From: Squalus acanthias
Lineage: Eukaryota
Reading direction: 5' to 3'
Assembly (NCBI GenBank): GCA_030390025.1
Contig: JASTWF010000033.1
Coordinates: forward strand, 1,862,001-1,926,000
Length of the DNA stretch: 64,000 nucleotides
Position numbers and translations under genes: made by a program
The notes under the pieces: generated by a model
What the model saw: only the letters and a program-made list of their open reading frames with translations
What the model was told of the DNA's origin: nothing
The model's database searches: none
Shown here: piece after piece, positions 25,828 through 55,236 of the stretch
Numbering within the stretch: position 1 is the stretch's first letter
Layout: every line of letters starts with the position of its first letter

Positions 25828-26772
25828 ATGACAGGAAGTCTCGGACCCGTTTCATGCTCCTCCTGTGCCATGTGGGAAACCAGGGACACTTCCAGTGTCC
25901 CTGACAACTACGTGTGCGGGAAGTGTGTCCAGCTGCAGCTCCTGACAGCCCGCATGGCGGTGCTGGAGCTGCGGGTGGACTCACTCTGGAGCATGCACGA
26001 TGCCGAGAACTCGGTGAATCGCTCATTTAGTGAGTTGTCCACACCGCAGGTAAAGGCTAGGACAGACAGTGAATGGGTGACCAAGAAGCAGGGCAATATC
26101 AGGAAGGTAGTGCAGGAGTCCCCTGTGGTCATCTCCCTCCAAAACAGGTATGCCGCTTTGGATACTGTTGGGGGAGATGGCCTACCAGGGGAAGGCACTA
26201 GCAGCCAGGTTCATGGCACCATGGCTGGCTCTGCTGCACAGCAGGGCGGGAAAAAGTGTGGTAGGGCTATAGTGATAGGGGACTCAATTGTAAGGGGAAT
26301 AGACAGGAGTTTCTGTGGCCGCAACCGAGATTCCAGGATGGTATGTTGCCTCCCTGGTGCAAGGGTCAAGGATGTCTCGGAGCGGCTGCAGAACATTCTG
26401 AAGAGGGAGGGTGAACAGCCAGCTGTCGTGGTGCATGTAGGTACCAACGATATAGGCAAAAACCGGGAAGAGGTCCTACAAGCAGAATTTAGGGAGCTAG
26501 GAGCTAAATTAAAAAGTAGGACCTCTAAGGTAGTAATCTCTGGATTGCTACCAGGGCCACGTGCTAATCAGAATAGAGAGAACAGGATAGTGAGATTGAA
26601 TACGTGGCTTGAGCAGTGGTGCAGGAGGGAGGGATTCAAATTCCTGAGGCATTGGAACCAGTTCTGGGGGAAGTGGGACCTGTACAAAAGGGACGGTCTG
26701 CACTTGGGCAGGACTGGAACCGATGTCCTCGGGGTAATATTTGCTAAAGCAGTTCGGGAGGATTTAAACTAA
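25828..26772 (+). CDS. CR1 ORF1p: N-terminal Cys zinc-finger/leucine-zipper region plus SGNH/GDSL-type esterase domain
   Basis: CSSCAMW...CGKC; VIGDSIVR, PGA, HVGTND, DGLHL esterase blocks; 314 aa. Confidence 0.92.
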   Translation: MTGSLGPVSCSSCAMWETRDTSSVPDNYVCGKCVQLQLLTARMAVLELRVDSLWSMHDAENSVNRSFSELSTPQVKARTDSEWVTKKQGNIRKVVQESPVVISLQNRYAALDTVGGDGLPGEGTSSQVHGTMAGSAAQQGGKKCGRAIVIGDSIVRGIDRSFCGRNRDSRMVCCLPGARVKDVSERLQNILKREGEQPAVVVHVGTNDIGKNREEVLQAEFRELGAKLKSRTSKVVISGLLPGPRANQNRENRIVRLNTWLEQWCRREGFKFLRHWNQFWGKWDLYKRDGLHLGRTGTDVLGVIFAKAVREDLN

Positions 26773-29757
26773 TATGGCAGGGGAATGGGAACCTATGTAG
26801 CGAAACAGGGGGAAGTAATATGCAGTCAGAAACAAATGTTAGAAGGGTGAGAAACAATAGGGGAAGGCCGAGTTAACAAAGGCAAGAAACACAAAGGGCC
26901 ATACTAAATCATAAGTCTAAAAGGACAAAGGATGTTAATAAAACAAGCCTAAAGGCTCTGTGTCTTAATGCAAGGAGTATCCGTAATAAGGTGGATGAAT
27001 TGACTGTGCAAATAAATGTTAACGGATACGATGTGATTGGGATTACAGAGACGTGGCTCCAGAACAATCAAGGCTGGGAACTGAACATCCAGGGGTATTC
27101 AATATTCAGAAAGGATAGAATAAAAGGAAAAGGGGGTGGGGTAGCATTGCTGGTTAAAGAGGAGATTAATGCAATAGCTAGGAAGGACATCAGCTTGGAG
27201 GATGTGGAATCAATATGGGTTGAGCTGCAGAACACCAAAGGGCAGAAAACGTTAGTGGGAGTTGTGTACAGACCTCCAAACAGCAGTAGAGAGGTGGGGG
27301 AGGGTATGAAACAGGAAATCAGAGGTGCGTGCAAAAAAGGCACGGCAGTTATCATGGGTGACTTTAATATGCATATAGATTGGGCTACTCAAACTGGAAG
27401 CAATACGGTGGAGGAGGATTTCCTGGAGTGTTTAAGGGATGGTTTCCTAAACCAATATGTTGAGGAACCAACTCGAGGGGAGGCCATCCTGGACTGGGTG
27501 TTGTGTAATGAGGAGGGAATAATCAGCAATCTTGTGGTACGAGGCCCCCTGGGGAAGAGTGACCATAGTATGGTGGAGTTCTACATTAGGATGGAGAAGG
27601 AAACAGTTAAGTCAGAGACCATGGTCCAGAACTTAAATAAGGGCAACTTTGAGGGTATGAGGCGTGAATTGGCGAGGTTAAATTGGCAAGCGATATTTAA
27701 GGGGCTATCAGTGGAAGGGCAATGGCAGACATTTAGAGATCGCATGGATGAACAACAACAATTGTACATCCCGGACTGGCGTAAAAATAAAAAAGGGAAG
27801 GTGGCTCAACCATGGCTAACAAGGGAAATCAGGGATAGTATTAAAACCAAGGAAGTTGCATACAAATTGGCCAGAAGTAGCAGCAAACCCGGGGACTGGG
27901 AGAACTTCAAAACTCAGCAGAGGAGGACGAAGGGTTTGATTAGGGCAGGGAAAATAAAATATGAAAGGAAGCTTGCAGAGAACATTAAAATGGACTGCAA
28001 AAGCTTCTATAAATATGTAAAAAGAAAGAGGTTAGTAAAAACAAACGTAGGTCCCCTGCAGTCGGAAACAGGGGAAGTCGTAATGGGGAACAAGGAAATG
28101 GCAGATCAATTGAACAAGTACTTTGGTTCGGTGTTTACTGTGGAGGACACACACAACGTGCCGGAAATAAAAGGGGTCAGAGGATCTGGTAAGAGGGAGG
28201 AGCTGAGGGAAATCCTTATTAGTCGGGAAAAGGTATTGGGGAAATTGATGGGACTGAAGGCTGAAAAATACCCGGGGCCTGATGGTCTGCATCCCAGAGT
28301 ACTTAAGGAGATGGCCTTGGAAATAGTGGATGCATTGACGATCATTTTCCAACATTCCTTAGACTCTGGATCAGTTCCGATGGAGTGGAGGGTGGCCAAT
28401 GTAACCCCTCTTTTTAAAAAAGGAGAGAGGGAGAAAGCAGGGAATTATAGACCGGTCAGCCTGACATCGGTCGTGGGTAAAATGATGGAAGCAATTATTA
28501 AAGATGTCATAACAGACAATTTGGAAAGTGGCGACATGATAGGTCCAAGTCAGCATGGATTTGTGAAAGGGAAATCTTGCTTGACAAATCTTCTGGAATT
28601 TTTTGAGGATGTTTCCAATAGGGTGGACAGGGGGGAACCAGTAGATGTGGTGTATTTGGACTTTCAGAAGGCCTTCGACAAGGTCCCACACAAGAGATTG
28701 GTGAGCAAAGTTAAAGCACATGGGATTGGGGGTAATGTGTTGACGTGGATTGAGAACTGGTTGGCACACAGGAAACAAAGAGTAGGAGTAAATGGGTACT
28801 TTTCAGAATGGCAGGCAGTGACCAGTGGGGTACCGCAGGGTTCGGTGCTGGGACCCCAGCTGTTTACATTATATATTAATGAATTGGACGAAGGGATTAA
28901 ATGTAATATCTCCAAATTTGCGGATGACACTAAATTGGGAGGCAGTGTGAACAATGAGGAGGATGCTAGGAGGCTACAGAGTGACTTGGACAGGTTGGGT
29001 GAATGGGAAAATGTATGGCAGATGAAGTACAATGTGGATAAATGTGAGGTTATCCACTTTGGTGGTAAAAATAGAGAGGCGGAATATTACCTGAATGGTG
29101 GCAGATTAGGGAAAGGGGAGGTGCAACGAGACCTGGGCATCATGGTACATCAGTCACTGAAGGTGGGAATGCAAGTGCAGCAGGCAGTCAAGAAAGCAAA
29201 CGGAATGATGGCCTTCATAGTAAGGGGATTTGAGTACAGGTGTAGGGAGGTGATGCTGCAGTTGTACAGGGCCTTGGTGAGGCCACACCTGGAGTAGTGT
29301 GCGCAGTTTTGGTCTCCTAACTTAAGGAAGGACATTCTTGCTATTGAGGGAGTGCAGCGAAGGTTCACTAGATTGATTCCTGGGATGGCCGGACTGACAT
29401 ATCAAGAAAGATTGGGTCAACTGAACTTGTATCCTCTGGAGTTCAGAAGAATGAGGGGGGATCTTATAGAGACATTTAAAATCCTGACTGGTTTAGACAA
29501 ATTAGATGCGGGCAGAATGTTCCCAATGGTAGGGAAAACTAGAACCAGGGGTCACAGCCTAAGGATTAAGGGGAAGCCATTTAGGACTGAGCTGAGGAGG
29601 CAACTTCTTCACCCAGAGAGTGGTGAATCTATGGAATTCTCTTCCACAGAAGGTTGTTGAGGCCAGTTCGCTAAATATATTCAAAAGGGAGTTAGATATA
29701 ACACTCACAACTAAGGGGATCAAGGGGTATGGCGAGAAAGCAGGAATGGGGTACTGA
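26763..29757 (+). pseudogene. CR1-B ORF2 (APE endonuclease plus RT), disabled
   Basis: NARSI, ITETWL, YRPP, GDFN, SDH and RT motifs; TAA at 26874, TAG at 29295 (TAT in B1), extra C at 29601. Confidence 0.9.
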
Positions 29758-35833: not shown

Positions 35834-38701
35834 TCAGTATCCCGTCCCCGCCTTCTCTCTGTAACCCTTAACCCCTTTTGCCTGTAGAAATATATCTAAT
35901 TCCCTCTTAAATATATTTAATGAGCTGGCGTACACTGCCCTCTGTGGCAATGAGTTCCACAGGTTCACCACCCTCTGAGTGAAGAAATTCCCCCTCATTT
36001 CTGTCCTAAATTGTTTAGCCCTTATCCTTAAATGATGTCCTCTAGTTCTGTTCTCACCCGCCAAGGGAAACATTCCTTCTGCATCTAGTCTGTCTAGACC
36101 TGTCAGAATTTTATACACTTCTATGAGGTCCCCTCTCAATCTTCTAAACTCCAGTGTGTACATCCCTAAACTACATAGTCTCTCCTCATAGGTCAATCCC
36201 GCCATTCCTGGTATCAGCCTGGTGAATCGCCGCTGCACCCCCTCCATGGCAAGAACATCTTTCCTCAGATGAGGCGACCAAAACTGTACACAGTACTCGA
36301 GGTGTGGTCTCACCAGTGCCCTGTACAGCTGCAGCAAGGTATCCCTGTTCCTGTATTCCAACCCTTTTGCTATGAAGGCCAGCATACCGTTTGCCTTCTT
36401 GATCGCCTGTTGCACCTGCATGCTCGCCTTCAGTGACTGGTGTACAAGAACACCCAGGTCTCTCTGTACTTCCCCCTCTCCCAATTTATTGCCATTTAAA
36501 TAATAATTTGCCCTCCCGTTCCTGCACCCAAGGTGGATAACTTCGCACTTGTCCACATTATAGTGCATCTGCCATTTATCCGCCCAATCACCCAGTCTGT
36601 CCAAATCGCTCTGGAGCTTCCTGGTCTCCTCCTCTGAGCCCACCCCCCCTCCTAGTTTAGTGTCGTCTGCAAATTTGGAAATGCTGCATCCGACTCCCTG
36701 ATCCAGGTCATTAATGTAAATTGTGAACAGCTGGGGACCCAGGACAGATCCCTGTGGTACCCCACTTGTTACTGCCTGCCATTCAGAAAATGAGCCGTTT
36801 ATTCCAACTCTCTGTTTTCTATCTGACAGCCAGTTCTCTATCCACGTCAATACTTTCCCCTTTATCCCATGAGCTTCAATTTTCCATGCTAATCTTTTAT
36901 GTGGGACCTTATCGAAGGCCTTTTGGAAGTCCAGGTACACCACATCTACTGGCTCTCCCCCATCTATTTTACCAGTTACTCCCTCAAAAAATTCCAATAG
37001 ATTAGTCAAGCACGATTTACCCTTTGTAAATCCATGTTGACTCTGTCCTATCCTGTCCCCATTTGCTAAGTGCTCCGCTATTTCATCCTTAATGATGGAC
37101 TCCAGCATTTTGCCCACAACTGATGTAAGGCTTACAGGTCTGTAATTACCTGCTTTTTCCCTACTCCCCTTTTTGAATAGTGGGGTAACGTTAGCTACCC
37201 TCCAATCCATGGGCACTGTTCCCGAGTCTAATGAATTCTGAAAAATCATACTTAGTGCATCCGCTATCTCTAGGGCCACCTCCTTCAGCACCCTAGGATG
37301 CATGTTATCAGGCCCTGGGGATTTGTCCGCCTTCAATCCCTTTAGCTTCCTTAACACCATATCCTTAGAGATATTGACGTGCGTCAGTTCCTCCTTTGCA
37401 AATGTCCCTATTTTTCCCGATATCCCAGGGAGGTTTTTTGTGTCTTCCTTCGTAAAGACTGACCCAAAGTATGCATTTATTTGGTCTGCCATTTCTTTAT
37501 TTCCCGTTATATATTCCCCCGTATCTGACTGCAATGGGCCAACTTTGGTTTTCACCAGTCTTTTCCTCTTGATATACTTATAAAAGCTTTTGGAGTTAGT
37601 TTTTATATTTTCCGCCAGCTTGCTTTCGTAAGCTATTTTGCCCCTCTTGATTAAGCCCTTTGTCCTCCTTTGCTCTATCTTAAACTGTTCCCAATCTTCC
37701 GCTCTGGCGCTTTTTTTGGCTATTTTATACGCCCTATCTTTGGATTTTATGCTGTCTCTAATTTCCCCTGTTATCCACGGTTGAGTCACCTTTTTAGATT
37801 TCCTTTTATGCCAGATTGGTATAAACAATTTTTGCAATTTTGTCATTCTATCTTTAAATGCTTGCCATTGTTTATCTACCTCCAGTCCTCCCAGGAACGT
37901 TGTCCAATCAGACCTACTCAGTTCCCGTCTAATGGCATCATAATTCCCCTTGTTTAAATTCAGGACCTTAGTATCTGAGTCAATTTCTTCGCTCTCCATT
38001 TCGAGTGAGAAATCGATCATGTTATGATCGCTCTGACCCAAGGGTCCCCGTACAACAAGATTACTAATTAGTCCCTTCTCATTGCACAGTACCCAGTCCA
38101 ATATAGCCTGTTCCCGAGTTGGTTCCTCGACATATTGATCCAGATAACCATCCCTTAAACACTCAAGGAATTCCTCCTCCTCATTATTTTTACTGATTAG
38201 GCTATTCCAATCTATATGTAAGTTAAAGTCACCTATGATGACAGCTGTGCTCTTATTGCACGCTTCTCTAATTTCCCTCGTGATGCCCTCCCCAACCTCT
38301 ATTTTACTATTTGGAGGCCTATATACCACTCCTATTAATGTTTTTCGCCCCTCGCTATTTCTTAGCTCCACCCATATAGATTCTGTATTAACTGAGTTAA
38401 TATCCTTCCTTTCAATTGCATTTATCCCTTCTTTTACCAGCAATGCTACCCCTCCTCCCTTTCTTTTTTGTCGATCCTTCCTAAATACTGAATACCCCTG
38501 TATGTTAAGCTCCCAGCCCTGCTCACCCTGCAACCATGTTTCCGTAATCCCAATTAGATCATAATTATTAACCTCTATTTCCACAGCTAATTCATCTACC
38601 TTGTTCCTGATGCTTCTCGCATTAAGGTATAAAACCCTCAGGCTTTTTTTATGCTCACATTTTTTATGAATTGGTTTGGCCCTTTGTTTTTTGTTCCTCA
38701 C
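35834..38701 (-). CDS. CR1 ORF2p: APE endonuclease plus reverse transcriptase, uninterrupted 955 codons, no AUG before the endonuclease domain
   Basis: [51 protein letters not shown]. The track start is GTG. Confidence 0.93.
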   Translation of the reverse strand: MRNKKQRAKPIHKKCEHKKSLRVLYLNARSIRNKVDELAVEIEVNNYDLIGITETWLQGEQGWELNIQGYSVFRKDRQKRKGGGVALLVKEGINAIERKDINSVNTESIWVELRNSEGRKTLIGVVYRPPNSKIEVGEGITREIREACNKSTAVIIGDFNLHIDWNSLISKNNEEEEFLECLRDGYLDQYVEEPTREQAILDWVLCNEKGLISNLVVRGPLGQSDHNMIDFSLEMESEEIDSDTKVLNLNKGNYDAIRRELSRSDWTTFLGGLEVDKQWQAFKDRMTKLQKLFIPIWHKRKSKKVTQPWITGEIRDSIKSKDRAYKIAKKSARAEDWEQFKIEQRRTKGLIKRGKIAYESKLAENIKTNSKSFYKYIKRKRLVKTKVGPLQSDTGEYITGNKEMADQINAYFGSVFTKEDTKNLPGISGKIGTFAKEELTHVNISKDMVLRKLKGLKADKSPGPDNMHPRVLKEVALEIADALSMIFQNSLDSGTVPMDWRVANVTPLFKKGSREKAGNYRPVSLTSVVGKMLESIIKDEIAEHLANGDRIGQSQHGFTKGKSCLTNLLEFFEGVTGKIDGGEPVDVVYLDFQKAFDKVPHKRLAWKIEAHGIKGKVLTWIENWLSDRKQRVGINGSFSEWQAVTSGVPQGSVLGPQLFTIYINDLDQGVGCSISKFADDTKLGGGVGSEEETRKLQSDLDRLGDWADKWQMHYNVDKCEVIHLGCRNGRANYYLNGNKLGEGEVQRDLGVLVHQSLKASMQVQQAIKKANGMLAFIAKGLEYRNRDTLLQLYRALVRPHLEYCVQFWSPHLRKDVLAMEGVQRRFTRLIPGMAGLTYEERLCSLGMYTLEFRRLRGDLIEVYKILTGLDRLDAEGMFPLAGENRTRGHHLRIRAKQFRTEMRGNFFTQRVVNLWNSLPQRAVYASSLNIFKRELDIFLQAKGVKGYREKAGTGY

Positions 38702-38775
38702 CCTTTTACCATTTATTTCTGTCTGCCTTTCACTTTCCTCTATTTCACTACATAGGTTTCAAGCCCCCTGCCATA

Positions 38776-39723
38776 CTAGTTTAAATGCTCCCGAACTGCT
38801 TTATCAAAAATTACCCCGAGAACATCAGTTCCATCTTTGCACAGGTGTAGACCGTCCCTTTTGTATAGGTCACACCTACCACAAAACTGGTTCCAATGCC
38901 TCAAAAATTTAAAACCCTCCCTCTTACACCACTGCTCAAGCCACGTATTTAGCCTAACTATCCTGTTCTCTGTACTCTTACTAGCACGTGGCACTGGTAG
39001 TAATCCAGAGATTACTACCTTCGAGGTCCTACTTTTTAGCTTGGCTCCTAACTCCCTAAATTCTACTTGTAGGACCTCTTCCCTTTTTTTAGCTACGTCG
39101 TTGGTACCAACATGTATCACGACAACTGGCTGTTCCCCCTCCCCCTCCAGAATGTTCTGCACCCGCGCCGAGACATCCTTCACCCTTGCACCAGGGAGGC
39201 AACATACCATCCTGGAGTCTCGGTCGCGACCACAGTAACCCCTATCTATTCCCCTTACAATCGAATCCCCTATTACTATAGCCCTGCCACTCTTTTTCCC
39301 TCCCTTCTTTGCAACAGAGCCAGTCATGGTGCCATGAGCCTGGCTGCTGGTGCCTTCCCCCGATGAGTCATCCCCCCCGACAACAGCACCTAAGGCGGTG
39401 AACCTGTTGCTAAGGGAGACAACCCCAGGGGATTTCTGCACTACCTTCCTGCCCTTGCTCTGCCTTTTGGTCACCCATGTACTATCTACGCTGGCCTTAA
39501 CCTGCGGTGTGACCAACTCACTAAATGTGTTATCCACAACCCTCTCAGAATCGTGGATGCTCCAAAGTGAGTCCATCCGCAGCTCAAGGGCCGTCATGCG
39601 GTCCCACATGAGCTGCAGCTGGACACACTTCCCGCACACATGGTTGTCAGGGACACAGGAAGCTTCCCTGATTTCCCACATGTTACAGGAGGAGCATGAC
39701 ACAGGTCCGAGATCTACTGCCAT
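38776..39723 (-). CDS. CR1 ORF1p (zinc finger plus SGNH esterase), 315 aa
   Basis: CSSCNMW...CGKC; IGDSIVR, HVGTND, DGLHL; clearly homologous to ORF1 at 25828. Confidence 0.93.
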   Translation of the reverse strand: MAVDLGPVSCSSCNMWEIREASCVPDNHVCGKCVQLQLMWDRMTALELRMDSLWSIHDSERVVDNTFSELVTPQVKASVDSTWVTKRQSKGRKVVQKSPGVVSLSNRFTALGAVVGGDDSSGEGTSSQAHGTMTGSVAKKGGKKSGRAIVIGDSIVRGIDRGYCGRDRDSRMVCCLPGARVKDVSARVQNILEGEGEQPVVVIHVGTNDVAKKREEVLQVEFRELGAKLKSRTSKVVISGLLPVPRASKSTENRIVRLNTWLEQWCKREGFKFLRHWNQFCGRCDLYKRDGLHLCKDGTDVLGVIFDKAVREHLN

Positions 39724-40174
39724 GACTTAACCCTTATATTAATTTTTAATTTTCTAGTTTTAGTTTATTTATTGACTTTTGTTTTCCCGAAGCTTACTTA
39801 GACCAATGTATACTGTACTCCTCTTATTCCTTTTTAAACTAACCAAATCCCACTAGTTTTAGTTTTACTTTCTAGGAAGGTTTGAGGAAAGTACTTACCA
39901 GTTAGTCTTACCTCCCTGGTCTTTCGCTGACTTCCCGGTCTTGTGTCCCCTTGGTCCTACGCCGACTTCCCGCTCCTCCCGGTTCCTGCCCTGCTGAAAA
40001 GAAACTGAGACCAAAAAATTTGTGACCTCTGTTTTTAGACTGCTAAAAGACTAGTAGGTTAGAGGAGGAGGGCGGGTGGGGGTTCCTACTCTGTAGGAAC
40101 TCGGGTTTAAGCCACCACCCTCCTTAAATGCTGTTCACCTGGGTGCTTCCCACCTGGTCCGCTTCCGGTCTCGT

Positions 40175-43100
40175 CTCTCCCGACACTGGCCTCTGCAAAA
40201 AAAGCCCGCGAAAGCGAGTTTAAATACTCACTGTGCTGCTGCTCTCTCCGCTCCCGACACTGGCCTCTGCAAAAAAAGCCCGCGAAAGCGAGTTTAAATA
40301 CTCACTGTGCTGCTGCTCTCTCCGCTCCCGACACTGGCCTCTGCAAAAAAAGCCCGCGAAAGCGAGTTTAAATACTCACTGTGCTGCTGCTCTCTCCGCT
40401 CCCGACACTGGCCTCTGCAAAAAAAGCCCACGAAAGCGAGTTTAAATACTCACTGTGCTGCTGCTCTCTCCGCTCCCGACACTGGCCTCTGCAAAAAAAG
40501 CCCGCGAAAGTGAGTTTAAATACTCACTGTGCTGCTGCTCTCTCCGCTCCCGACACTGGCCTCTGCAAAAAAAGCCCGCGAAAGCGAGTTTAAATACTCA
40601 CTGTGCTGCTGCTCTCTCCGCTCCCGACACTGGCCTCTGCAAAAAAAGCCCGCGAAAGTGAGTTTAAATACTCACTGTGCTGCTGCTCTCTCCGCTCCCG
40701 ACACTGGCCTCTGCAAAAAAAGCCCGCGAAAGCGAGTTTAAATACTCACTGTGCTGCTGCTCTCTCCGCTCCCGACACTGGCCTCTGCAAAAAAAGCCCG
40801 CGAAAGCGAGTTTAAATACTCACTGTGCTGCTGCTCTCTCCGCTCCCGACACTGGCCTCTGCAAAAAAAGCCCGCGAAAGCGAGTTTAAATACTCACTGT
40901 GCTGCTGCTCTCTCCGCTCCCGACACTGGCCTCTGCAAAAAAAGCCCGCGAAAGTGAGTTTAAATACTCACGGTGCTGCTGCTCTCTCCGCTCCCGACAC
41001 TGGCCTCTGCAAAAAAAGCCCGCGAAAGCGAGTTTAAATACTCACTGTGCTGCTGCTCTCTCCGCTCCCGACACTGGCCTCTGCAAAAAAAGCCCGCGAA
41101 AGTGAGTTTAAATACTCACTGTGCTGCTGCTCTCTCCGCTCCCGACACTGGGCCTCTGCAAAAAAAGCCCACGAAAGTGAGTTTAAATACTCACTGTGCT
41201 GCTGCTCTCTCCGCTCCCGACACTGGCCTCTGCAAAAAAAGCCCGCGAAAGCGAGTTTAAATACTCACTGTGCTGCTGCTCTCTCCGCTCCCGACACTGG
41301 CCTCTGCAAAAAAAGCCCGCGAAAGCGAGTTTAAATACTCACTGTGCTGCTGCTCTCTCCGCTCCCGACACTGGGCTCTGCAAAAAAAGCCCACGAAAGC
41401 GAGTTTAAATACTCACTGTGCTGCTGCTCTCTCCGCTCCCGACACTGGCCTCTGCAAAAAAAGCCCGCGAAAGTGAGTTTAAATACTCACTGTGCTGCTG
41501 CTCTCTCCGCTCCCGACACTGGCCTCTGCAAAAAAAGCCCGCGAAAGCGAGTTTAAATACTCACTGTGCTGCTGCTCTCTCCGCTCCCGACACTGGCCTC
41601 TGCAAAAAAAGCCCGCGAAAGCGAGTTTAAATACTCACTGTGCTGCTGCTCTCTCCGCTCCCGACACTGGCCTCTGCAAAAAAAGCCCGCGAAAGCGAGT
41701 TTAAATACTCACTGTGCTGCTGCTCTCTCCGCTCCCGACACTGGCCTCTGCAAAAAAAGCCCGCGAAAGTGAGTTTAAATACTCACGGTGCTGCTGCTCT
41801 CTCCGCTCCCGACACTGGCCTCTGCAAAAAAAGCCCGCGAAAGCGAGTTTAAATACTCACTGTGCTGCTGCTCTCTCCGCTCCCGACACTGGCCTCTGCA
41901 AAAAAAGCCCGCGAAAGTGAGTTTAAATACTCACTGTGCTGCTGCTCTCTCCGCTCCCGACACTGGCCTCTGCAAAAAAAGCCCGCGAAAGTGAGTTTAA
42001 ATACTCACTGTGCTGCTGCTCTCTCCGCTCCCGACACTGGCCTCTGCAAAAAAAGCCCGCGAAAGTGAGTTTAAATACTCACTGTGCTGCTGCTCTCTCC
42101 GCTCCCGACACTGGCCTCTGCAAAAAAAGCCCGCGAAAGCGAGTTTAAATACTCACTGTGCTGCTGCTCTCTCCGCTCCCGACACTGGCCTCTGCAAAAA
42201 AAGCCCGCGAAAGTGAGTTTAAATACTCACTGTGCTGCTGCTCTCTCCGCTCCCGACACTGGCCTCTGCAAAAAAAGCCCGCGAAAGTGAGTTTAAATAC
42301 TCACTGTGCTGCTGCTCTCTCCGCTCCCGACACTGGCCTCTGCAAAAAAAGCCCGCGAAAGTGAGTTTAAATACTCACTGTGCTGCTGCTCTCTCCGCTC
42401 CCGACACTGGCCTCTGCAAAAAAAGCCCGCGAAAGCGAGTTTAAATACTCACTGTGCTGCTGCTCTCTCCGCTCCCGACACTGGCCTCTGCAAAAAAAGC
42501 CCGCGAAAGTGAGTTTAAATACTCACTGTGCTGCTGCTCTCTCCGCTCCCGACACTGGCCTCTGCAAAAAAAGCCCGCGAAAGTGAGTTTAAATACTCAC
42601 TGTGCTGCTGCTCTCTCCGCTCCCGACACTGGCCTCTGCAAAAAAAGCCCGCGAAAGTGAGTTTAAATACTCACTGTGCTGCTGCTCTCTCCGCTCCCGA
42701 CACTGGCCTCTGCAAAAAAAGCCCGCGAAAGTGAGTTTAAATACTCACTGTGCTGCTGCTCTCTCCGCTCCCGACACTGGCCTCTGCAAAAAAAGCCCGC
42801 GAAAGTGAGTTTAAATACTCACTGTGCTGCTGCTCTCTCCGCTCCCGACACTGGCCTCTGCAAAAAAAGCCCGCGAAAGTGAGTTTAAATACTCACTGTG
42901 CTGCTGCTCTCTCCGCTCCCGACACTGGCCTCTGCAAAAAAAGCCCGCGAAAGTGAGTTTAAATACTCACTGTGCTGCTGCTCTCTCCGCTCCCGACACT
43001 GGCCTCTGCAAAAAAAGCCCGCGAAAGCGAGTTTAAATACTCACTGTGCTGCTGCTCTCTCCGCTCCCGACACTGGCCTCTGCAAAAAAAGCCCGCGAAA

Positions 43101-46100
43101 GCGAGTTTAAATACTCACTGTGCTGCTGCTCTCTCCGCTCCCGACACTGGCCTCTGCAAAAAAAGCCCGCGAAAGCGAGTTTAAATACTCACTGTGCTGC
43201 TGCTCTCTCCGCTCCCGACACTGGCCTCTGCAAAAAAAGCCCGCGAAAGCGAGTTTAAATACTCACTGTGCTGCTGCTCTCTCCGCTCCCGACACTGGCC
43301 TCTGCAAAAAAAGCCCGCGAAAGCGAGTTTAAATACTCACTGTGCTGCTGCTCTCTCCGCTCCCGACACTGGCCTCTGCAAAAAAAGCCCGCGAAAGTGA
43401 GTTTAAATACTCACTGTGCTGCTGCTCTCTCCGCTCCCGACACTGGCCTCTGCAAAAAAAGCCCGCGAAAGCGAGTTTAAATACTCACTGTGCTGCTGCT
43501 CTCTCCGCTCCCGACACTGGCCTCTGCAAAAAAAGCCCGCGAAAGTGAGTTTAAATACTCACTGTGCTGCTGCTCTCTCCGCTCCCGACACTGGCCTCTG
43601 CAAAAAAAGCCCGCGAAAGTGAGTTTAAATACTCACTGTGCTGCTGCTCTCTCCGCTCCCGACACTGGCCTCTGCAAAAAAAGCCCGCGAAAGTGAGTTT
43701 AAATACTCACTGTGCTGCTGCTCTCTCCGCTCCCGACACTGGCCTCTGCAAAAAAAGCCCGCGAAAGTGAGTTTAAATACTCACTGTGCTGCTGCTCTCT
43801 CCGCTCCCGACACTGGCCTCTGCAAAAAAAGCCCGCGAAAGTGAGTTTAAATACTCACTGTGCTGCTGCTCTCTCCGCTCCCGACACTGGCCTCTGCAAA
43901 AAAAGCCCGCGAAAGTGAGTTTAAATACTCACTGTGCTGCTGCTCTCTCCGCTCCCGACACTGGCCTCTGCAAAAAAAGCCCGCGAAAGTGAGTTTAAAT
44001 ACTCACTGTGCTGCTGCTCTCTCCGCTCCCGACACTGGGCCTCTGCAAAAAAAGCCCGCGAAAGTGAGTTTAACTACTCACTGTGCTGCTGCTCTCTCCG
44101 CTCCCGACACTGGCCTCTGCAAAAAAAGCCCGCGAAAGTGAGTTTAAATACTCACTGTGCTGCTGCTCTCTCCGCTCCCGACACTGGCCTCTGCAAAAAA
44201 AGCCCGCGAAAGTGAGTTTAAATACTCACTGTGCTGCTGCTCTCTCCGCTCCCGACACTGGCCTCTGCAAAAAAAGCCCGCGAAAGCGAGTTTAAATACT
44301 CACTGTGCTGCTGCTCTCTCCGCTCCCGACACTGGCCTCTGCAAAAAAAAGCCCGCGAAAGTGAGTTTAAATACTCACTGTGCTGCTGCTCTCTCCGCTC
44401 CCGACACTGGCCTCTGCAAAAAAAGCCCGCGAAAGTGAGTTTAAATACTCACTGTGCTGCTGCTCTCGTCCGCTCCCGACACTGGCCTCTGCAAAAAAAG
44501 CCCGCGAAAGTGAGTTTAAATACTCACTGTGCTGCTGCTCTCTCCGCTCCCGACACTGGCCTCTGCAAAAAAAGCCCGCGAAAGTGAGTTTAAATACTCA
44601 CTGTGCTGCTGCTCTCTCCGCTCCCGACACTGGCCTCTGCAAAAAAAGCCCGCGAAAGCGAGTTTAAATACTCACTGTGCTGCTGCTCTCTCCGCTCCCG
44701 ACACTGGCCTCTGCAAAAAAAAGCCCGCGAAAGTGAGTTTAAATACTCACTGTGCTGCTGCTCTCTCCGCTCCCGACACTGGCCTCTGCAAAAAAAGCCC
44801 GCGAAAGTGAGTTTAAATACTCACTGTGCTGCTGCTCTCTCCGCTCCCGACACTGGCCTCTGCAAAAAAAGCCCGCGAAAGTGAGTTTAAATACTCACTG
44901 TGCTGCTGCTCTCTCCGCTCCCGACACTGGCCTCTGCAAAAAAAGCCCGCGAAAGTGAGTTTAAATACTCACTGTGCTGCTGCTCTCTCCGCTCCCGACA
45001 CTGGCCTCTGCAAAAAAAGCCCGCGAAAGTGAGTTTAAATACTCACTGTGCTGCTGCTGCTCTCTCCGCTCCCGACACTGGCCTCTGCAAAAAAAGCCCG
45101 CGAAAGTGAGTTTAAATACTCACTGTGCTGCTGCTCTCTCCGCTCCCGACACTGGCCTCTGCAAAAAAAGCCCGCGAAAGTGAGTTTAAATACTCACTGT
45201 GCTGCTGCTCTCTCCGCTCCCGACACTGGCCTCTGCAAAAAAAGCCCGCGAAAGCGAGTTTAAATACTCACTGTGCTGCTGCTCTCTCCGCTCCCGACAC
45301 TGGCCTCTGCAAAAAAAGCCCGCGAAAGTGAGTTTAAATACTCACTGTGCTGCTGCTCTCTCCGCTCCCGACACTGGCCTCTGCAAAAAAAGCCCGCGAA
45401 AGCGAGTTTAAATACTCACTGTGCTGCTGCTCTCTCCGCTCCCGACACTGGCCTCTGCAAAAAAAGCCCGCGAAAGTGAGTTTAAATACTCACTGTGCTG
45501 CTGCTCTCTCCGCTCCCGACACTGGCCTCTGCAAAAAAAGCCCGCGAAAGCGAGTTTAAATACTCACTGTGCTGCTGCTCTCGTCCTCTCCCGACACTGG
45601 CCTCTGCAAAAAAAGCCCGCGAAAGCGAGTTTAAATACTCACTGTGCTGCTGCTCTCTCCGCTCCCGACACTGGGCCTCTGCAAAAAAAGCCCGCGAAAG
45701 CGAGTTTAAATACTCACTGTGCTGCTGCTCTCTCCGCTCCCGACACTGGCCTCTGCAAAAAAAGCCCGCGAAAGTGAGTTTAAATACTCACTGTGCTGCT
45801 GCTCTCTCCGCTCCCGACACTGGCCTCTGCAAAAAAAGCCCGCGAAAGTGAGTTTAAATACTCACTGTGCTGCTGCTCTCTCCGCTCCCGACACTGGCCT
45901 CTGCAAAAAAAGCCCGCGAAAGTGAGTTTAAATACTCACTGTGCTGCTGCTCTCTCCGCTCCCGACACTGGCCTCTGCAAAAAAAGCCCGCGAAAGCGAG
46001 TTTAAATACTCACTGTGCTGCTGCTCTCTCCGCTCCCGACACTGGCCTCTGCAAAAAAAAGCCCGCGAAAGTGAGTTTAAATACTCACTGTGCTGCTGCT

Positions 46101-48950
46101 CTCTCCGCTCCCGACACTGGCCTCTGCAAAAAAAGCCCGCGAAAGCGAGTTTAAATACTCACTGTGCTGCTGCTCTCTCCGCTCCCGACACTGGCCTCTG
46201 CAAAAAAAGCCCGCGAAAGTGAGTTTAAATACTCACTGTGCTGCTGCTCTCTCCGCTCCCGACACTGGCCTCTGCAAAAAAAGCCCGCGAAAGTGAGTTT
46301 AAATACTCACTGTGCTGCTGCTCTCTCCGCTCCCGACACTGGCCTCTGCAAAAAAAGCCCGCGAAAGTGAGTTTAAATACTCACTGTGCTGCTGCTCTCT
46401 CCGCTCCCGACACTGGCCTCTGCAAAAAAAGCCCGCGAAAGCGAGTTTAAATACTCACTGTGCTGCTGCTCTCTCCGCTCCCGACACTGGCCTCTGCAAA
46501 AAAAGCCCGCGAAAGTGAGTTTAAATACTCACTGTGCTGCTGCTCTCTCCGCTCCCGACACTGGCCTCTGCAAAAAAAGCCCGCGAAAGTGAGTTTAAAT
46601 ACTCACTGTGCTGCTGCTCTCTCCGCTCCCGACACTGGCCTCTGCAAAAAAAGCCCGCGAAAGTGAGTTTAAATACTCACTGTGCTGCTGCTCTCTCCGC
46701 TCCCGACACTGGCCTCTGCAAAAAAAAGCCCGCGAAAGTGAGTTTAAATACTCACTGTGCTGCTGCTCTCTCCGCTCCCGACACTGGCCTCTGCAAAAAA
46801 AGCCCGCGAAAGTGAGTTTAAATACTCACTGTGCTGCTGCTCTCTCCGCTCCCGACACTGGCCTCTGCAAAAAAAGCCCGCGAAAGCGAGTTTAAATACT
46901 CACTGTGCTGCTGCTCTCTCCGCTCCCGACACTGGCCTCTGCAAAAAAAGCCCGCGAAAGTGAGTTTAAATACTCACTGTGCTGCTGCTCTCTCCGCTCC
47001 CGACACTGGCCTCTGCAAAAAAAAGCCCGCGAAAGTGAGTTTAAATACTCACTGTGCTGCTGCTGCTCTCTCCGCTCCCGACACTGGGCTCTGCAAAAAA
47101 AGCCCACGAAAGCGAGTTTAAATACTCACTGTGCTGCTGCTCTCGTCCTCTCCCGACACTGGCCTCTGCAAAAAAAGCCCGCGAAAGTGAGTTTAAATAC
47201 TCACTGTGCTGCTGCTCTCTCCGCTCCCGACACTGGCCTCTGCAAAAAAAGCCCGCGAAAGTGAGTTTAAATACTCACTGTGCTGCTGCTCTCTCCGCTC
47301 CCGACACTGGCCTCTGCAAAAAAAGCCCGCGAAAGTGAGTTTAAATACTCACTGTGCTGCTGCTCTCTCCGCTCCCGACACTGGCCTCTGCAAAAAAAGC
47401 CCGCGAAAGTGAGTTTAAATACTCACTGTGCTGCTGCTCTCTCCGCTCCCGACACTGGCCTCTGCAAAAAAAGCCCGCGAAAGTGAGTTTAAATACTCAC
47501 TGTGCTGCTGCTCTCTCCGCTCCCGACACTGGCCTCTGCAAAAAAAGCCCGCGAAAGTGAGTTTAAATACTCACTGTGCTGCTGCTCTCTCCGCTCCCGA
47601 CACTGGCCTCTGCAAAAAAAGCCCGCGAAAGTGAGTTTAAATACTCACTGTGCTGCTGCTCTCTCCGCTCCCGACACTGGCCTCTGCAAAAAAAGCCCGC
47701 GAAAGTGAGTTTAAATACTCACTGTGCTGCTGCTGCTCTCTCCGCTCCCGACACTGGCCTCTGCAAAAAAAAGCCCGCGAAAGTGAGTTTAAGTACTCAC
47801 TGTGCTGCTGCTCTCTCCGCTCCCGACACTGGCCTCTGCAAAAAAAGCCCGCGAAAGTGAGTTTAAATACTCACTGTGCTGCTGCTCTCTCCGCTCCCGA
47901 CACTGGCCTCTGCAAAAAAAGCCCGCGAAAGTGAGTTTAAATACTCACTGTGCTGCTGCTGCTCTCTCCGCTCCCGACACTGGCCTCTGCAAAAAAAGCC
48001 CGCGAAAGCGAGTTTAAATACTCACTGTGCTGCTGCTCTCTCCGCTCCCGACACTGGCCTCTGCAAAAAAAGCCCGCGAAAGTGAGTTTAAATACTCACT
48101 GTGCTGCTGCTCTCTCCGCTCCCGACACTGGCCTCTGCAAAAAAAGCCCGCGAAAGTGAGTTTAAATACTCACTGTGCTGCTGCTCTCGTCCGCTCCCGA
48201 CACTGGCCTCTGCAAAAAAAGCCCGCGAAAGCGAGTTTAAATACTCACTGTGCTGCTGCTCTCTCCGCTCCCGACACTGGCCTCTGCAAAAAAAGCCCGC
48301 GAAAGCGAGTTTAAATACTCACTGTGCTGCTGCTCTCTCCGCTCCCGACACTGGCCTCTGCAAAAAAAGCCCGCGAAAGTGAGTTTAAATACTCACTGTG
48401 CTGCTGCTCTCTCCGCTCCCGACACTGGCCTCTGCAAAAAAAGCCCGCGAAAGTGAGTTTAAATACTCACTGTGCTGCTGCTCTCTCCGCTCCCGACACT
48501 GGCCTCTGCAAAAAAAGCCCGCGAAAGTGAGTTTAAATACTCACTGTGCTGCTGCTCTCTCCGCTCCCGACACTGGCCTCTGCAAAAAAAGCCCGCGAAA
48601 GTGAATTTAAATACTCACTGTGCTGCTGCTCTCTCCGCTCCCGACACTGGCCTCTGCAAAAAAAAGCCCGCGAAAGTGAATTTAAATACTCACTGTGCTG
48701 CTGCTCTCTCCGCTCCCGACACTGGCCTCTGCAAAAAAAAGCCCGCGAAAGTGAATTTAAATACTCACTGTGCTGCTGCTCTCTCCGCTCCCGACACTGG
48801 CCTCTGCAAAAAAAAGCCCGCGAAAGTGAGTTTAAATACTCACTGTGCTGCTGCTCTCTCCGCTCCCGACACTGCCCTCTGCAAAAAAAGCCCGCGAAAG
48901 TGAGTTCAAATACTCACTGTGCTGCTGCTCTCTCTGCTCCCGACATTGGC
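40175..48950 (-). repeat. ~118 x 74-bp highly homogeneous tandem array at the 5' end of CR1-A3
   Basis: Unit on + is CTCTCTCCGCTCCCGACACTGGCCTCTGCAAAAAAAGCCCGCGAAAG(T/C)GAGTTTAAATACTCACTGTGCTGCTG; ORF starts recur every 74 bp. Confidence 0.98.
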
Positions 48951-49522
48951 AGCAAAATCGATCCTGTCCTTGAATTCATCCAAACCATCGAATATAAACA
49001 GCAATCCCTCTGGGTTCTTCCAGAGCTCTCCAAGAATATTCCCGAAGTAAGGATATAAAATGAGTATCAGGTTCCACAGGGTTATTCTACAGTTGATAGC
49101 GTTCAAATCCCTGAATTTAAAACTGAAAACAACTTGAAATTGTGGGTATATTTTCCCAGTGGCCCAGTCATGAACAATCTTTTGTACCATTGTTGTTTTT
49201 CCAATCCCCGGGACTCCGCTCACTGCTCCTGAACTCCCAGAATTGGATTTTCTCCGTGAAAAACAGCTCTGGAACAATTGATCAGTTCGGATTTTTTCCA
49301 GCTCTCTCTTGAGATCTTTCTCTCTCCACTCTTCATGGTCTCGGCCTCTTGCCAGCAGTTCATGTTCTACAAGTGTCCGATCTCGAACAGTAGAAATGAC
49401 CGTTAGCTCAGCGTATCGATCAACCAGCTGGAAAATCTTAACCTTCTCCTTTATTAGGATAGTGTTCACTCTCAGTGTTTCAGTTTGTACCCGGAGTGTT
49501 TCCTTGTGTTTCTGTTGAACAT
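48950..49522 (-). pseudogene. NLR-family (NLRC3/NLRP-like) gene: 5' part of the large NACHT exon, truncated just after Walker B
   Basis: Acceptor ttctatctgttctaattgaAG at 49523-49524; DVQQKHKETL..., Walker A GVPGIGKTT, FSFKFRDLN, Walker B LLFIFDGLDE, then a switch into array sequence. Confidence 0.9.
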
Positions 49523-49913
49523 CTTCAATTAGAACAGATAGAAAGTGGTTCTCAGTATTAGTTGTATTGACAAAAAACAACTTCTCAATACTATTTCACT
49601 ATTCAGTAAAATATTGCAAGATTTAATTCACAGCTTCAATAGAGAGGCATGCAGAAATTAAAACTCAGTTAATGCAAACTTCGCTGGAAAGTGAACAATG
49701 GCCAAAATGTTTTCAAATTCTCACTTAATTCTAATATTCACTGAACATGGAGATTTCTGAGAGTGATATTTTCCCTCTGATAGTTAATGCCATCAGCGCT
49801 GCATTATACTGTAGATATCTCATTACAAATCCACACAAGACCCTGGTTATACAACAGTAGTGGATCTCATTGATCAATCTTCCAAGGGAGTAGCTAGAAG
49901 AAACGAGAAGGAT

Positions 49914-52931: not shown

Positions 52932-53787
52932 GATGAGTATGGGGTTTCACAGTGTATCATGATCCTGCCAGGTGTGTATTTGGTTTCAGTGTATCAGGAT
53001 CCTGCCAGGTGTGTATGGGGTTTCACAATGTATCAGGATCCTGCCAGGTGTGTATAGGGTTTCACATTGTATCAGAATTCTGCCAGGTGTCTATGGGGTT
53101 TCACAGTGAATCACGAACCTGCCAGGTGTGTATGCGGTTTCACAGTGTATCAGGATCCTGTCAGTTGTGTATGGGGTTTCACAGTGTATCAGGATCCTGC
53201 CAGGTGTGTATGGGGTTTCACAGTGTTTCAGGATCCTGCCAGGTGTGTATGGGGTCTCAGTGTTGCAGATCTTGCCAGGTGTGTATGTGGTTTCACAGTG
53301 TATCAGGATCCTGCCAGGTGTGTATGGGGTTTCACAGTGTATCAGGATCCTGCCAGGTGTGTATGGGGTTTCACAGTGTATCAGGATCCTGCCAGGTGTG
53401 TATGGGGTCTCAGTGTTGCAGATCTTGCCAGGTGTGTATGTGGTTTCACAGTGTATCAGGATCCTGCCAGGTGTGTATGGGGTTTCACAGTGTATCAGGA
53501 TCCTGCCAGGTGTGTATGGGGTTTCACAGTGTATCAGGATCCTGCCAAGTGTGTATGGGGTTTCACAGTATATCAGGATCCTGCCAGGTGTGTATGGGGT
53601 TTCACAGTGTATCAGGATCCTGCCAGGTGTGTAAGGGGTTTCAAAGTGTATCAGGATCCTGCCAGGTGTGTATGGGGTTTCACAGTGTATCAGGATCCTG
53701 CCAGGTGTCCATGGGGTTTCACAGTGTATCAGGGTCCTGCCTGGTGTGTATGGGATTTCACAGTGTATCAGGATCCTGCTAGGTGAG
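52932..53787 (-). repeat. 39-bp minisatellite, block 6, opposite orientation
   Basis: Same unit; joins the 22-bp array directly. Confidence 0.96.
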
Positions 53788-55236
53788 TGTGGGCTTTCTG
53801 AGTCTGTGTATAGAGCTGTCTGGGTCTGTGAAATTAGCTTTCTGGGTCTGTGAATGGCACTGTCTGGGTCTGTGAATGCAGCTTTCTGGGTCTGTGAATG
53901 GAGCTATCTGGGTCTGTGAATGGAGCTGTCTGGGTCTGTGAATGAGCAGTCTTTGTCTGTGAATGCAGCTCTCTGTGTCTGTGAATGGAGCTGTCTGGGT
54001 CTGTGAATGAGCTGTCTTGGTCTGTGAATGGAGCTGTCTTAGTCTGTGAATGGAGTTCTCTGGGTCTGTGAATGGAGCTGTCTGGGGCTGTGAATGGAGC
54101 TGTCTGAGTCTCTAATTGGAGCTGTCTGGGTCTGTGAATGGAGCTGTCTGAGTCTCTAAATGGAGCTGTCTGGGTCTGTGAAATGAGCTTTCTGTATCTT
54201 TGAATGGTGCTGTCTGGGTTTGTGAAAGGATTTGTTTGGGTATGTGAATGGAGCTGTCTGGGTCTGTGAATGGAGCTGTCTGAATCTGTGAATGGAGCTA
54301 TCTGGGTCTATGAATGGAGCTGTCTGAGTCTGTGAATGGAGCTGGCTGGGTCTGTGAATTGTGATGTCAGGGTCTGTGAATTGAGCTGACTGAGTCTGTG
54401 CAATGAGTTGTCTGGGTCTGTGAATGGAGCTGCATGGGTCTGTGAATTGAGCTGTCAGAGTCAGTAAATGGAGCTCTCTGGGTCTGTAAATGGAGCTGTT
54501 TGGGTCTGTAAATGGAGCGGTTTGAGTCTGTGATGGAGCTGTCTGTGTCTGTGAATGGAGCTGCCAGAGTCTGTAAATGGAGCTGTCTCAGTCTGTGTAT
54601 GGAGTTATCTGGGTCTGTGAATGGAGCTGTCTGGGTCTGTGAAGAGAGCTGTCTGAGTCTGGGAATGTAGCTATCTGTGTCTGTGAATGAGCTGTCTGGG
54701 TCAGTGAATGGAGCTGTCTGAGTCTGTGAATGTAGCTGCCAGAGTCTGTAAATGGAGCTGACTCGGTCTGTGAATGGAGCTTTCAGGGTCTGTGAATGGA
54801 GCTGTCTGGGTCTGTGAATGGAGCTGTCTGGGTTTGTGAATGGAGCTGTCTGAGTCTGTGAATGGTGCTGTTTGGGTCTGTGAATGGAGCTATCTGTGTC
54901 TGTGAATGAGCTGTCTGGATCTGTGAATGGAGCTGTCTGAATCTGAGAATGGTGCTGTTTGGGTCTGTGAATGAAGCTATCTGTGTCGGTGAATGAGCTG
55001 TCTGGGTCTGTGAATGGAGATGTCTAGGTCTGTGAATGGAGCTGTCTGGGTCTGTGAATGGAGCTGTCTGAGTCTGTGAATGGAGCTGTCTGGATCTGTG
55101 AAATGAACTTTCGGAGTCTGTGAATGGAGCTGTCTGGGTCTGTGAATGGAACTGTCTGCGTCTGTGAATGGTGCTATCTAGTTCTCTGAAATTAACTTTC
55201 TGAGTCTGTGAATGGAGCTGTCTGAATCTGTGAATG

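What the first reader, a model, noticed from the sequence alone, without database searches (positions are those of the whole stretch)
38700..38790. Same slippery heptamer in the divergent CR1-A, whose ORF2 has no AUG start
Seen: on the minus strand ORF1 ends CAT TTA AAC TAG (heptamer 38785-38779). The -1 frame again equals the ORF2 frame (84 nt to 38701), followed by the same TATGGCAGGGG...AACCTATGTAG motif as in B. The first ATG in the ORF2 frame lies at the end of the endonuclease domain (DHNM), so ORF2 needs frameshifting or non-AUG initiation. Conservation across two otherwise diverged subfamilies argues for function. A TGA at 38761-38759 (GGG at the same codon in B) would block the fusion in this copy, so the apparently intact A3 may be dead through a single base.
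Basis: partly seen in the sequence, partly recalled or inferred. Interest (0 to 1): 0.72.

Follow-up and report, generated by a model that had tools for sequence, protein, structure and literature searches.

The report
Conserved frameshift signal in CR1 retrotransposons
A jumping gene (a CR1 LINE) of a shark-like fish joins its two genes at a ribosome-slipping sequence that is kept letter for letter from sharks to birds, so its copying enzyme is probably made as an extension of the first protein; the stop codon that blocks this one copy is absent from its relatives.

Summary
Observation confirmed. ORF1 (SGNH esterase) of this CR1 LINE ends T_TTA_AAC_TAG (38785-38776). ORF2 (endonuclease + RT) lies in the -1 frame and has no AUG until 38020, past most of the endonuclease.

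The TGA at 38761-38759 is private to this copy or assembly: 91 of 91 RNA reads and all covering contigs in two other runs read AGA.

A-versus-B agreement alone is weak evidence; the wide survey is strong. The heptamer stands at 8 of 8 bird-type junctions and 18 consensus junctions from 12 vertebrate species, before TAG, TAA or TGA, while synonymous codons elsewhere are scrambled. Only 1 of 95 ORF1 proteins ending Leu-Asn has a preceding residue incompatible with the leading T.

Best reading (0.75): -1 ribosomal frameshifting gives a gag-pol-like ORF1-ORF2 fusion of about 1,296 aa. Against: no 3' hairpin, many families carry linker AUGs, and 3 of 18 have UAAUG, so stop-restart remains possible. 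Nothing was measured. A G-run 11 nt downstream is a candidate stimulator. Ten searches found no report for CR1; an older untested proposal may exist (recalled).

The parts
38779..38785 (-). Slippery heptamer T_TTA_AAC in 0-frame phase at the ORF1 end
   Evidence: invariant in alignment A2, 9 of 9
38776..38778 (-). ORF1 stop TAG directly after the heptamer
   Evidence: TAG, TAA or TGA in relatives
38764..38768 (-). G-run starting 11 nt after the heptamer; candidate stimulator or Gly codon
   Evidence: GGGG invariant in 9 of 9; offset +11 in 6 of 7 junctions and +10 in 1
38759..38761 (-). Premature TGA in the ORF2 frame, private to this copy or assembly; other holders read AGA
   Evidence: 91 of 91 reads in X23; 18 contigs in X1; 1 contig in X13
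38776..39723 (-). ORF1, 315 aa: Cys-rich N-terminus, coiled-coil-like stretch (read by eye), SGNH esterase
   Evidence: PF13472 E 1.8e-11; family profile matches PDB 4c1b at E 5.9e-41
35834..38779 (-). ORF2 frame (-1): variable linker, APE endonuclease, reverse transcriptase; first ATG at 38020
   Evidence: PF03372, PF14529, PF00078
35735..35833 (-). 3' UTR ending in short TATCTATG-type repeats, no poly(A)
   Evidence: read; the same repeat is found at 12261-12285 in another A copy
39724..40176 (-). Unique part of the 5' UTR
40177..48950 (-). 118 copies of a 74-bp unit directly 5' of the element, probably an expanded 5' UTR monomer array (inference)
26763..26772 (+). Equivalent heptamer + TAA of the B-subfamily copy (comparison)

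Best explanation
This is a young, nearly full-length canonical vertebrate CR1 LINE whose ORF2 is most likely reached by programmed -1 ribosomal frameshifting. Most ribosomes end at the ORF1 stop and release the 315-aa esterase protein. A minority slip one base back on U_UUA_AAC (tRNA-Leu and tRNA-Asn re-pair on UUU AAA) and continue CUA-GUA-UGG..., making an ORF1-linker-endonuclease-RT fusion of about 1,296 aa, as retroviruses make Gag-Pol. With no 3' hairpin, the pause most likely comes from the adjacent stop codon, perhaps helped by a protein or a G-rich structure on the G-run 11 nt downstream. SHOWN: anatomy, frame, lack of AUG in subfamily A, DNA-level conservation across vertebrates, TGA private. 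INFERRED: the slip, the fusion and its low rate. SPECULATIVE: the stimulator. In this copy the slip would end 7 codons later at the private TGA.
For: (1) Heptamer at 8 of 8 bird-type loci that reach the ORF1 end, among 22 loci looked at; 7 followed by TAG, one decayed copy by AAG. (2) In the visible first 400 nt of about 1,000 published consensus sequences, 23 hits for heptamer+stop, 18 judged by eye to be ORF1 ends (TAG 11 of 12, TAA 6 of 8, TGA 1 of 3), in 12 species from chimaera to lizard. Anchoring instead on the DGLH codons gave 8 of 8 visible junctions with it (17 rows shown, 9 true ORF1 ends, 1 cut before the junction). Alternative spellings: none at a junction among 23 of 32 hits shown. 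(3) Synonymous positions are largely scrambled among these lineages, e.g. Leu codon kept in 1 of 12 to 3 of 14 cases for A3 versus four bird-type loci. (4) 95 of 258 ORF1 homologs end Leu-Asn. The residue before varies over 12 amino acids but is E, Q, K, M or W (no T-ending codon) in 1 of 95, against 40 of 95 one position earlier and 142 of 855 at positions -4 to -12; 0 of 46 after removing redundancy at 70%, 0 of 18 at 50% (binomial p 8e-5 and 0.02, kin not independent). (5) Other homologs end Q/S/A-G-N (11) or S/G-K-N (3), which fits G_GGA_AAC and A_AAA_AAC; protein only. (6) The -1 frame is open from heptamer to endonuclease in 5 of 5 bird-type loci long enough to show it. (7) Related invertebrate-type esterase LINEs join the ORFs in frame across TGA-C (21 of 25 same frame, C after the stop in 27 of 29), a second route to the same fusion.
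Against: No hairpin better than shuffles in the 79 nt after the heptamer in 8 of 8 junctions (z -1.8 to +1.4); pseudoknots were not modelled. AUG-lessness is not general: 4 of 5 complete bird-type linkers have an in-frame ATG 2 nt after the stop and the fifth at codon 22; B has one at codon 19; all 20 gene models that show the F-K-L junction have a Met in the linker (18 of them one stork species). 3 of 18 consensus junctions read TAATG, the SART1-type stop-start. In-phase slippery-like heptamers also occur inside A3 (5 in ORF2, 1 more in ORF1), so a heptamer alone proves little. No protein, ribosome-profiling or reporter data. The consensus rows are lossy and were scored by eye.
Confidence: 0.75

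Rival explanations
1. Termination-reinitiation (SART1- or L1-like): ribosomes finish ORF1 and restart at or just after the stop, on AUG where one exists and on a non-AUG codon in subfamily A. ORF2p is separate and the heptamer serves as a pause or termination context.
For: This is the mechanism reported for SART1 and human L1 (PMC2881922 passage; PMC3894237), in L1 independent of the AUG (PMC5009743 passage). TAATG in 3 of 18 consensus junctions; ATG at codon 4 in 4 of 5 bird-type linkers. An open -1 frame is equally needed here.
Against: No start-like codon is kept at a fixed place: codon 3 is GTA, ATA, ATT, GTT, ATG, GTG, GGT, GAT, GCT or AGC and codon 4 TGG, ATG, TCG, CCG and others. With a TAA stop and a hydrophobic residue, ATG can arise by chance (inference). 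The model does not explain why the base 7 nt before the stop is always T, or why GN and KN endings follow the X_XXY_YYZ pattern.
Confidence: 0.15
2. ORF2 comes from a spliced or subgenomic message, with TTTAAACTAG acting as a splice acceptor or core-promoter element.
For: CTAG resembles a YAG acceptor and TTTAAA a TATA-like box (pattern likeness only).
Against: 7 of 18 consensus junctions have TAA or TGA, which removes the AG. No joint was listed in raw RNA run X23 at a junction depth near 85. A subgenomic message of subfamily A would still lack an AUG before the endonuclease.
Confidence: 0.04
3. The motif is kept for protein reasons (a needed Leu-Asn C-terminus, or dual coding in the short overlap) or by shared descent and horizontal transfer, not as a recoding signal.
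For: Leu-Asn is fixed at the protein level; the sequences are related and CR1 can move between hosts; A versus B is only weakly informative.
Against: Codon choice and the preceding T are fixed while other synonymous sites are scrambled. Teleost L2-type esterase ORF1s end otherwise, and the match to the solved ZfL2-1 esterase stops at profile position 308 of 312, before Leu-Asn. Dual coding of F-K-L would itself need translation of the -1 frame from that point.
Confidence: 0.06

Closest known systems
Canonical vertebrate CR1 LINEs with esterase ORF1 (survey PMC13343379; section 15, passages and supplement rows seen)
   Same: Esterase ORF1, APE+RT ORF2, the same junction motif in the paper's own consensus rows
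   Different: The paper's main text has 0 occurrences of 'frameshift', 'translat' or 'overlap'; it does not treat ORF2 expression
-1 programmed frameshifting of retroviral gag-pol and coronavirus/arterivirus ORF1a/1b (U_UUA_AAC as the coronavirus site is recalled, from no call)
   Same: X_XXY_YYZ heptamer in phase at the end of the upstream ORF; polymerase in the -1 frame without its own start
   Different: No 3' hairpin found; the stop abuts the heptamer; non-LTR element with no protease gene, so the fusion would stay whole
[quoted passage not shown]
   Same: Short conserved motif at the same 11-nt offset; stop codon close behind the shift site
   Different: The motif here is G-rich, no binding protein is identified, and it may be a Gly codon
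SART1 UAAUG coupling and human L1 unconventional reinitiation (seen in reviews PMC3894237, PMC2881922; the primary SART1 paper is not held)
   Same: Bicistronic LINE RNA, ORF2 made at low level and dependent on ORF1 translation; TAATG in 3 of 18 CR1 consensus junctions
   Different: No AUG at or near the stop in subfamily A; conserved slippery heptamer; product predicted to be a fusion
Paramecium LINE groups 1-3 (PMC5405496 passage) and Drosophila HeT-A
   Same: Frameshift or stop readthrough proposed between or within LINE ORFs from sequence
   Different: +1 shift or readthrough in other clades, proposed from consensus only; not a -1 heptamer shared across vertebrates

Membership tests
Canonical vertebrate CR1 LINE | ORF1 with SGNH esterase | tested here: met
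   PF13472; profile match to 4c1b
Canonical vertebrate CR1 LINE | ORF2 with APE endonuclease and RT | tested here: met
Canonical vertebrate CR1 LINE | 3' end of short tandem repeats, no poly(A) | tested here: met
   read (8-bp unit x3.1 in a sister copy)
Canonical vertebrate CR1 LINE | Placement in the CR1 clade on an RT tree | not tested
   No tree built. Named homologs are from sharks, rays, birds, turtles, lizards and ray-finned fishes, and rows labelled LINE/CR1 share the junction
-1 programmed ribosomal frameshift | X_XXY_YYZ heptamer in 0-frame phase | tested here: met
   T_TTA_AAC
-1 programmed ribosomal frameshift | -1 frame open from shift site into the downstream ORF | tested here: met
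   Met for subfamily A as read in other runs and in 5 of 5 bird-type loci; not met in the two window copies, each with one stop
-1 programmed ribosomal frameshift | Conservation beyond coding need | tested here: met
-1 programmed ribosomal frameshift | Stimulatory stem-loop 5-9 nt downstream | tested here: not met
   8 of 8 junctions fold no better than shuffles; no outstanding long-range partner
-1 programmed ribosomal frameshift | Pseudoknot, G-quadruplex or protein stimulator | not tested
   Only the G-run's position was recorded
-1 programmed ribosomal frameshift | Measured trans-frame product | not testable with these tools
   needs a reporter, ribosome profiling or mass spectrometry
SART1-type stop-start coupling | Overlapping UAAUG | tested here: not met
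   A3 TAGTA, B TAATA; present in 3 of 18 consensus junctions
L1-type reinitiation | AUG-independent restart after ORF1 termination | not testable with these tools
   cannot be excluded from sequence

The most novel reading that the evidence does not exclude
Esterase-type CR1-group LINEs need an ORF1-ORF2 (gag-pol-like) fusion and have reached it by several recoding routes: U_UUA_AAC-stop across jawed vertebrates, G_GGA_AAC and A_AAA_AAC in other lineages, and UGA-C readthrough in invertebrate-type relatives. The vertebrate shift is driven without an RNA hairpin, by the abutting stop plus a host or element protein bound to a G-run 11 nt downstream, a G-rich counterpart of the arterivirus protein-stimulated shift.
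Probability: 0.3. Interest if true: 0.82.

Novelty: new variant of a known kind. Interest (0 to 1): 0.62.

Why it matters
How LINE ORF2 is translated is called an open question in a review seen here (PMC3894237), and the worked cases (L1, SART1) use reinitiation. CR1-group elements are described as the dominant retrotransposons of most vertebrates (PMC13343379 abstract). If they frameshift, their RT is tethered to the multimer-forming esterase ORF1 protein, which would set the ORF1:ORF2 ratio and could explain cis-preference. It would also mean that ORF2 gene models starting at an internal Met are wrong, and that 'intact copy' screens must check the linker: both window copies fail there. The signal is under 30 nt and can be tested at once in a reporter; a structure-free, stop-adjacent -1 shift would also interest recoding specialists.

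Tried and rejected
No whole genome is held for this window, so A copies could not be counted genome-wide. Viral contigs gave no relative in three scans. The prokaryote collection gave 19 weak hits of 23-29% identity, taken as bacterial SGNH proteins from the record titles and not analysed. No DNA was found for the GN- and KN-ending families, so their heptamers are inferred from protein only. DNA run X21 was uninformative (22 reads laid, none at the junction). RNA strand bias at the junction in X23 is weak (50 versus 35) and is not used as evidence of sense transcription. A local 3' hairpin was rejected. Pairing of the G-run with the 3' UTR was rejected: third-best site in A3, not among the six best in B; bird 3' ends were not available. 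No structure stood out after the UGA of 7 in-frame loci (z -1.5 to +1.6). A short +1-frame ORF (ATG at 38774) was dropped because the family's allele at 38761 truncates it (inference). Natural in-frame ORF1-ORF2 gene models (P0121, P0035) show the -1 frame reading F-K-L-x-x-Q-G but are predictions on possibly mutated copies, so are not counted as proof of a fusion. The paper's consensus table is cut at 400 characters per cell, so most junctions could not be seen. Two primary papers (PMC7528939, PMC1190309) are not held. No fold or complex prediction was run.
Full report
SETTING. The window is mostly satellite DNA with several LINE copies. The element in question (A3, minus strand, about 40176-35735) has ORF1 (315 aa, SGNH esterase) and an ORF2 frame with APE endonuclease and RT. 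Named ORF1 homologs are mainly from sharks and rays at 45-68% identity, so the host is most likely a cartilaginous fish (inference). Two 5'-truncated A copies are 99.4% and 98.9% identical to A3; a second subfamily, B, is 75% identical. No whole genome is held.

OBSERVATION. All stated coordinates are right. ORF1 ends CAT TTA AAC TAG; the heptamer is 38785-38779; the -1 frame is the ORF2 frame; a TGA at 38761-38759 interrupts it; the first ATG is at 38020, 201 codons after the endonuclease motif-I Asn. The finding does not mention that copy B is also interrupted in this frame (TAA 26874-26876) or that B has an in-frame ATG at 26820.

IS THE TGA TYPICAL? No. I laid four of the 24 listed runs on 37900-40150. 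At 38761, 91 of 91 raw RNA reads of X23, the whole depth of 18 contigs of X1 and the single contig of X13 carry the other letter, making the codon AGA. X21 had no reads there. The X13 contig over 38460-38923 differs from A3 at only two places, so that form has an open, AUG-free linker. Limits: 40 variant rows were shown and 226 were not; contigs drop rare variants; the relation of these organisms to the window's is coded; the window's own reads were not seen, so a private mutation and an assembly error cannot be told apart. A3 has three other near-private amino-acid differences in this stretch. No splice joint was listed for X23.

IS THE MOTIF MORE THAN CHANCE? Between A and B alone, only modestly: 179 of 229 (ORF1) and 88 of 163 (endonuclease) codons for identical residues are unchanged. 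Wider evidence is strong.

(a) One metagenome scan kept the best 80 of 156 confirmed loci. Of the 22 I examined for the junction, 8 bird-type loci reach the ORF1 end; all 8 have TTTAAAC, 7 followed by TAG. 'Bird-type' rests on likeness to named stork and crane proteins. Leu codons are kept in only 1 of 8, 3 of 14, 2 of 11 and 1 of 12 cases between A3 and four of them.

(b) The supplement of PMC13343379 lists about 1,000 consensus sequences, of which only the first 400 nt are visible. Heptamer+stop occurs 23 times; by eye 18 are ORF1 ends, in halosaur, bowfin, coelacanth, bullfrog, alligator, crocodile, bearded dragon, chimaera, stingray, sawfish, catshark and dogfish, before TAG (11), TAA (6) or TGA (1). 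One further row shows the heptamer without a clear stop. A search anchored on the DGLH codons, independent of the heptamer, gave 8 of 8 visible junctions with it. Alternative spellings gave none at a junction among 23 of 32 hits shown.

(c) Of 258 ORF1 homologs, 95 end Leu-Asn, including lizard, snake, turtle, alligator, eel, sturgeon and mormyrid proteins. If the base before TTA must be T, the preceding residue cannot be E, Q, K, M or W. It is one of these in 1 of 95, against 40 of 95 one residue earlier; 0 of 46 and 0 of 18 after thinning at 70% and 50% identity. The sequences are related, so the p-values (8e-5, 0.02) are indicative only. Eleven unnamed homologs end Q/S/A-G-N and three S/G-K-N, as G_GGA_AAC and A_AAA_AAC would require; I have no DNA for them. 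Teleost L2-type esterase ORF1s do not end this way.

STIMULATOR. None of 8 junctions folds better than shuffles, and the G-run has no outstanding long-range partner. What is kept is a stop directly after the heptamer and a run of at least four G starting 11 nt after it (6 of 7 at +11, 1 at +10; invariant in 9 of 9; within 14 nt in 14 of 18 consensus rows by eye). The run fixes two third-codon positions in the -1 frame, which hints at an RNA-level role, though it also encodes Gly. PMC5009743 (passages) describes a stop-dependent shift in pea enation mosaic virus, a protein-bound motif 11 nt 3' of the PRRSV shift site, and G-quadruplex stimulation in synthetic constructs. These are precedents, not tests.

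A SECOND ROUTE TO THE SAME FUSION. Among the 64 loci L017-L080, 39 show a DGxH motif. Of these 29 have TGA 33 codons later, followed by C in 27; where the endonuclease is visible it is in the same frame in 21 of 25, with an open linker in 19 of 21 and no Met in 3. One was confirmed as esterase + APE. They fall into 4-12 clusters and are 32-38% identical to A3 in the endonuclease; their clade was not determined. UGA-C as a leaky context is recalled knowledge. This suggests readthrough and so a general need for the fusion, but they may be one lineage.

MECHANISM. I favour -1 frameshifting to an ORF1-ORF2 fusion of 315 + 981 = 1,296 aa (0.75). Against it: no hairpin; linker AUGs in B and in 5 of 5 complete bird-type loci, 4 of them 2 nt after the stop; Met in all 20 F-K-L gene-model linkers; TAATG in 3 of 18 consensus junctions. 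Reinitiation (0.15) is the real rival and may act alongside the shift in AUG-bearing families, but no start codon is kept at a fixed place and it does not explain the leading T. Splicing or a subgenomic RNA (0.04) and protein-level constraint (0.06) fit poorly.

LITERATURE. Ten searches listed no paper that reports a CR1 frameshift; several listings showed only the top 25-30 of more hits. Seen as passages: PMC5009743 (first 300,000 of 449,034 characters; 'CR1' 0 times), PMC6609765, PMC2612034, PMC2734521, PMC3905857, PMC11303007, PMC2881922, PMC5405496, PMC11835228 (first 300,000 of 609,807 characters). PMC3894237: parts 1-2 of 3. PMC13343379: passages, section 15 and supplement rows. I recall, from no call, that 1990s-2000s work on chicken, turtle and waterfowl CR1 noted closely spaced or overlapping ORFs and may have named a putative frameshift; those papers were not found in this library, so the idea may be old but, as far as I could find, untested and missing from the reviews seen. 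Earlier notes of this scan mention a similar junction in Penelope-like elements and UGA-CUA in another LINE; they are unchecked leads, not support.

VERDICT. Real, conserved across jawed vertebrates at the DNA level, most likely a -1 programmed frameshift in a LINE; the window copy is interrupted by a private stop. New variant of a known kind; interest 0.62.

Noticed in passing
window 40177-48950: 118 near-identical 74-bp units (98% matches) sit directly 5' of A3, like a hugely expanded 5' UTR monomer array.
   Followed up: no
window 48909-49595 (minus): A NACHT-domain reading frame (PF05729, E 6.6e-20) is cut off exactly where the 74-bp array begins, as if the element or array interrupted an NLR-type exon.
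   Followed up: partly
window 26874-26876 and 26820: Copy B has a TAA in the ORF2-frame linker and an in-frame ATG upstream of it; its ORF2 is also broken at 29297 and near 29598. Whether these are private was not tested.
   Followed up: partly
L017-L078 (29 loci), e.g. L023:2020-2025: Esterase-ORF1 LINEs with ORF1 and ORF2 in frame across TGA-CTA/TGA-CCA: candidate stop-codon readthrough.
   Followed up: partly
L067:867-869: Esterase ORF1 ends TAG with the endonuclease in the same frame and no Met before it.
   Followed up: no
proteins P0164, P0170, P0173, P0178, P0184, P0185, P0190, P0212, P0233, P0253, P0262, P0191, P0231, P0257: Unnamed ORF1 homologs ending in G-N or K-N, compatible with other slippery heptamers; no DNA obtained.
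   Followed up: partly
window 7137-35736 and 52937-53798: Four of the five CR1 copies lie in or beside a 39-bp satellite, and A3's 3' end abuts it; possible target preference.
   Followed up: no
proteins P0010, P0301, P0399, P0400: CR1-like proteins deposited under bacterial names, probably host contamination in those assemblies.
   Followed up: no
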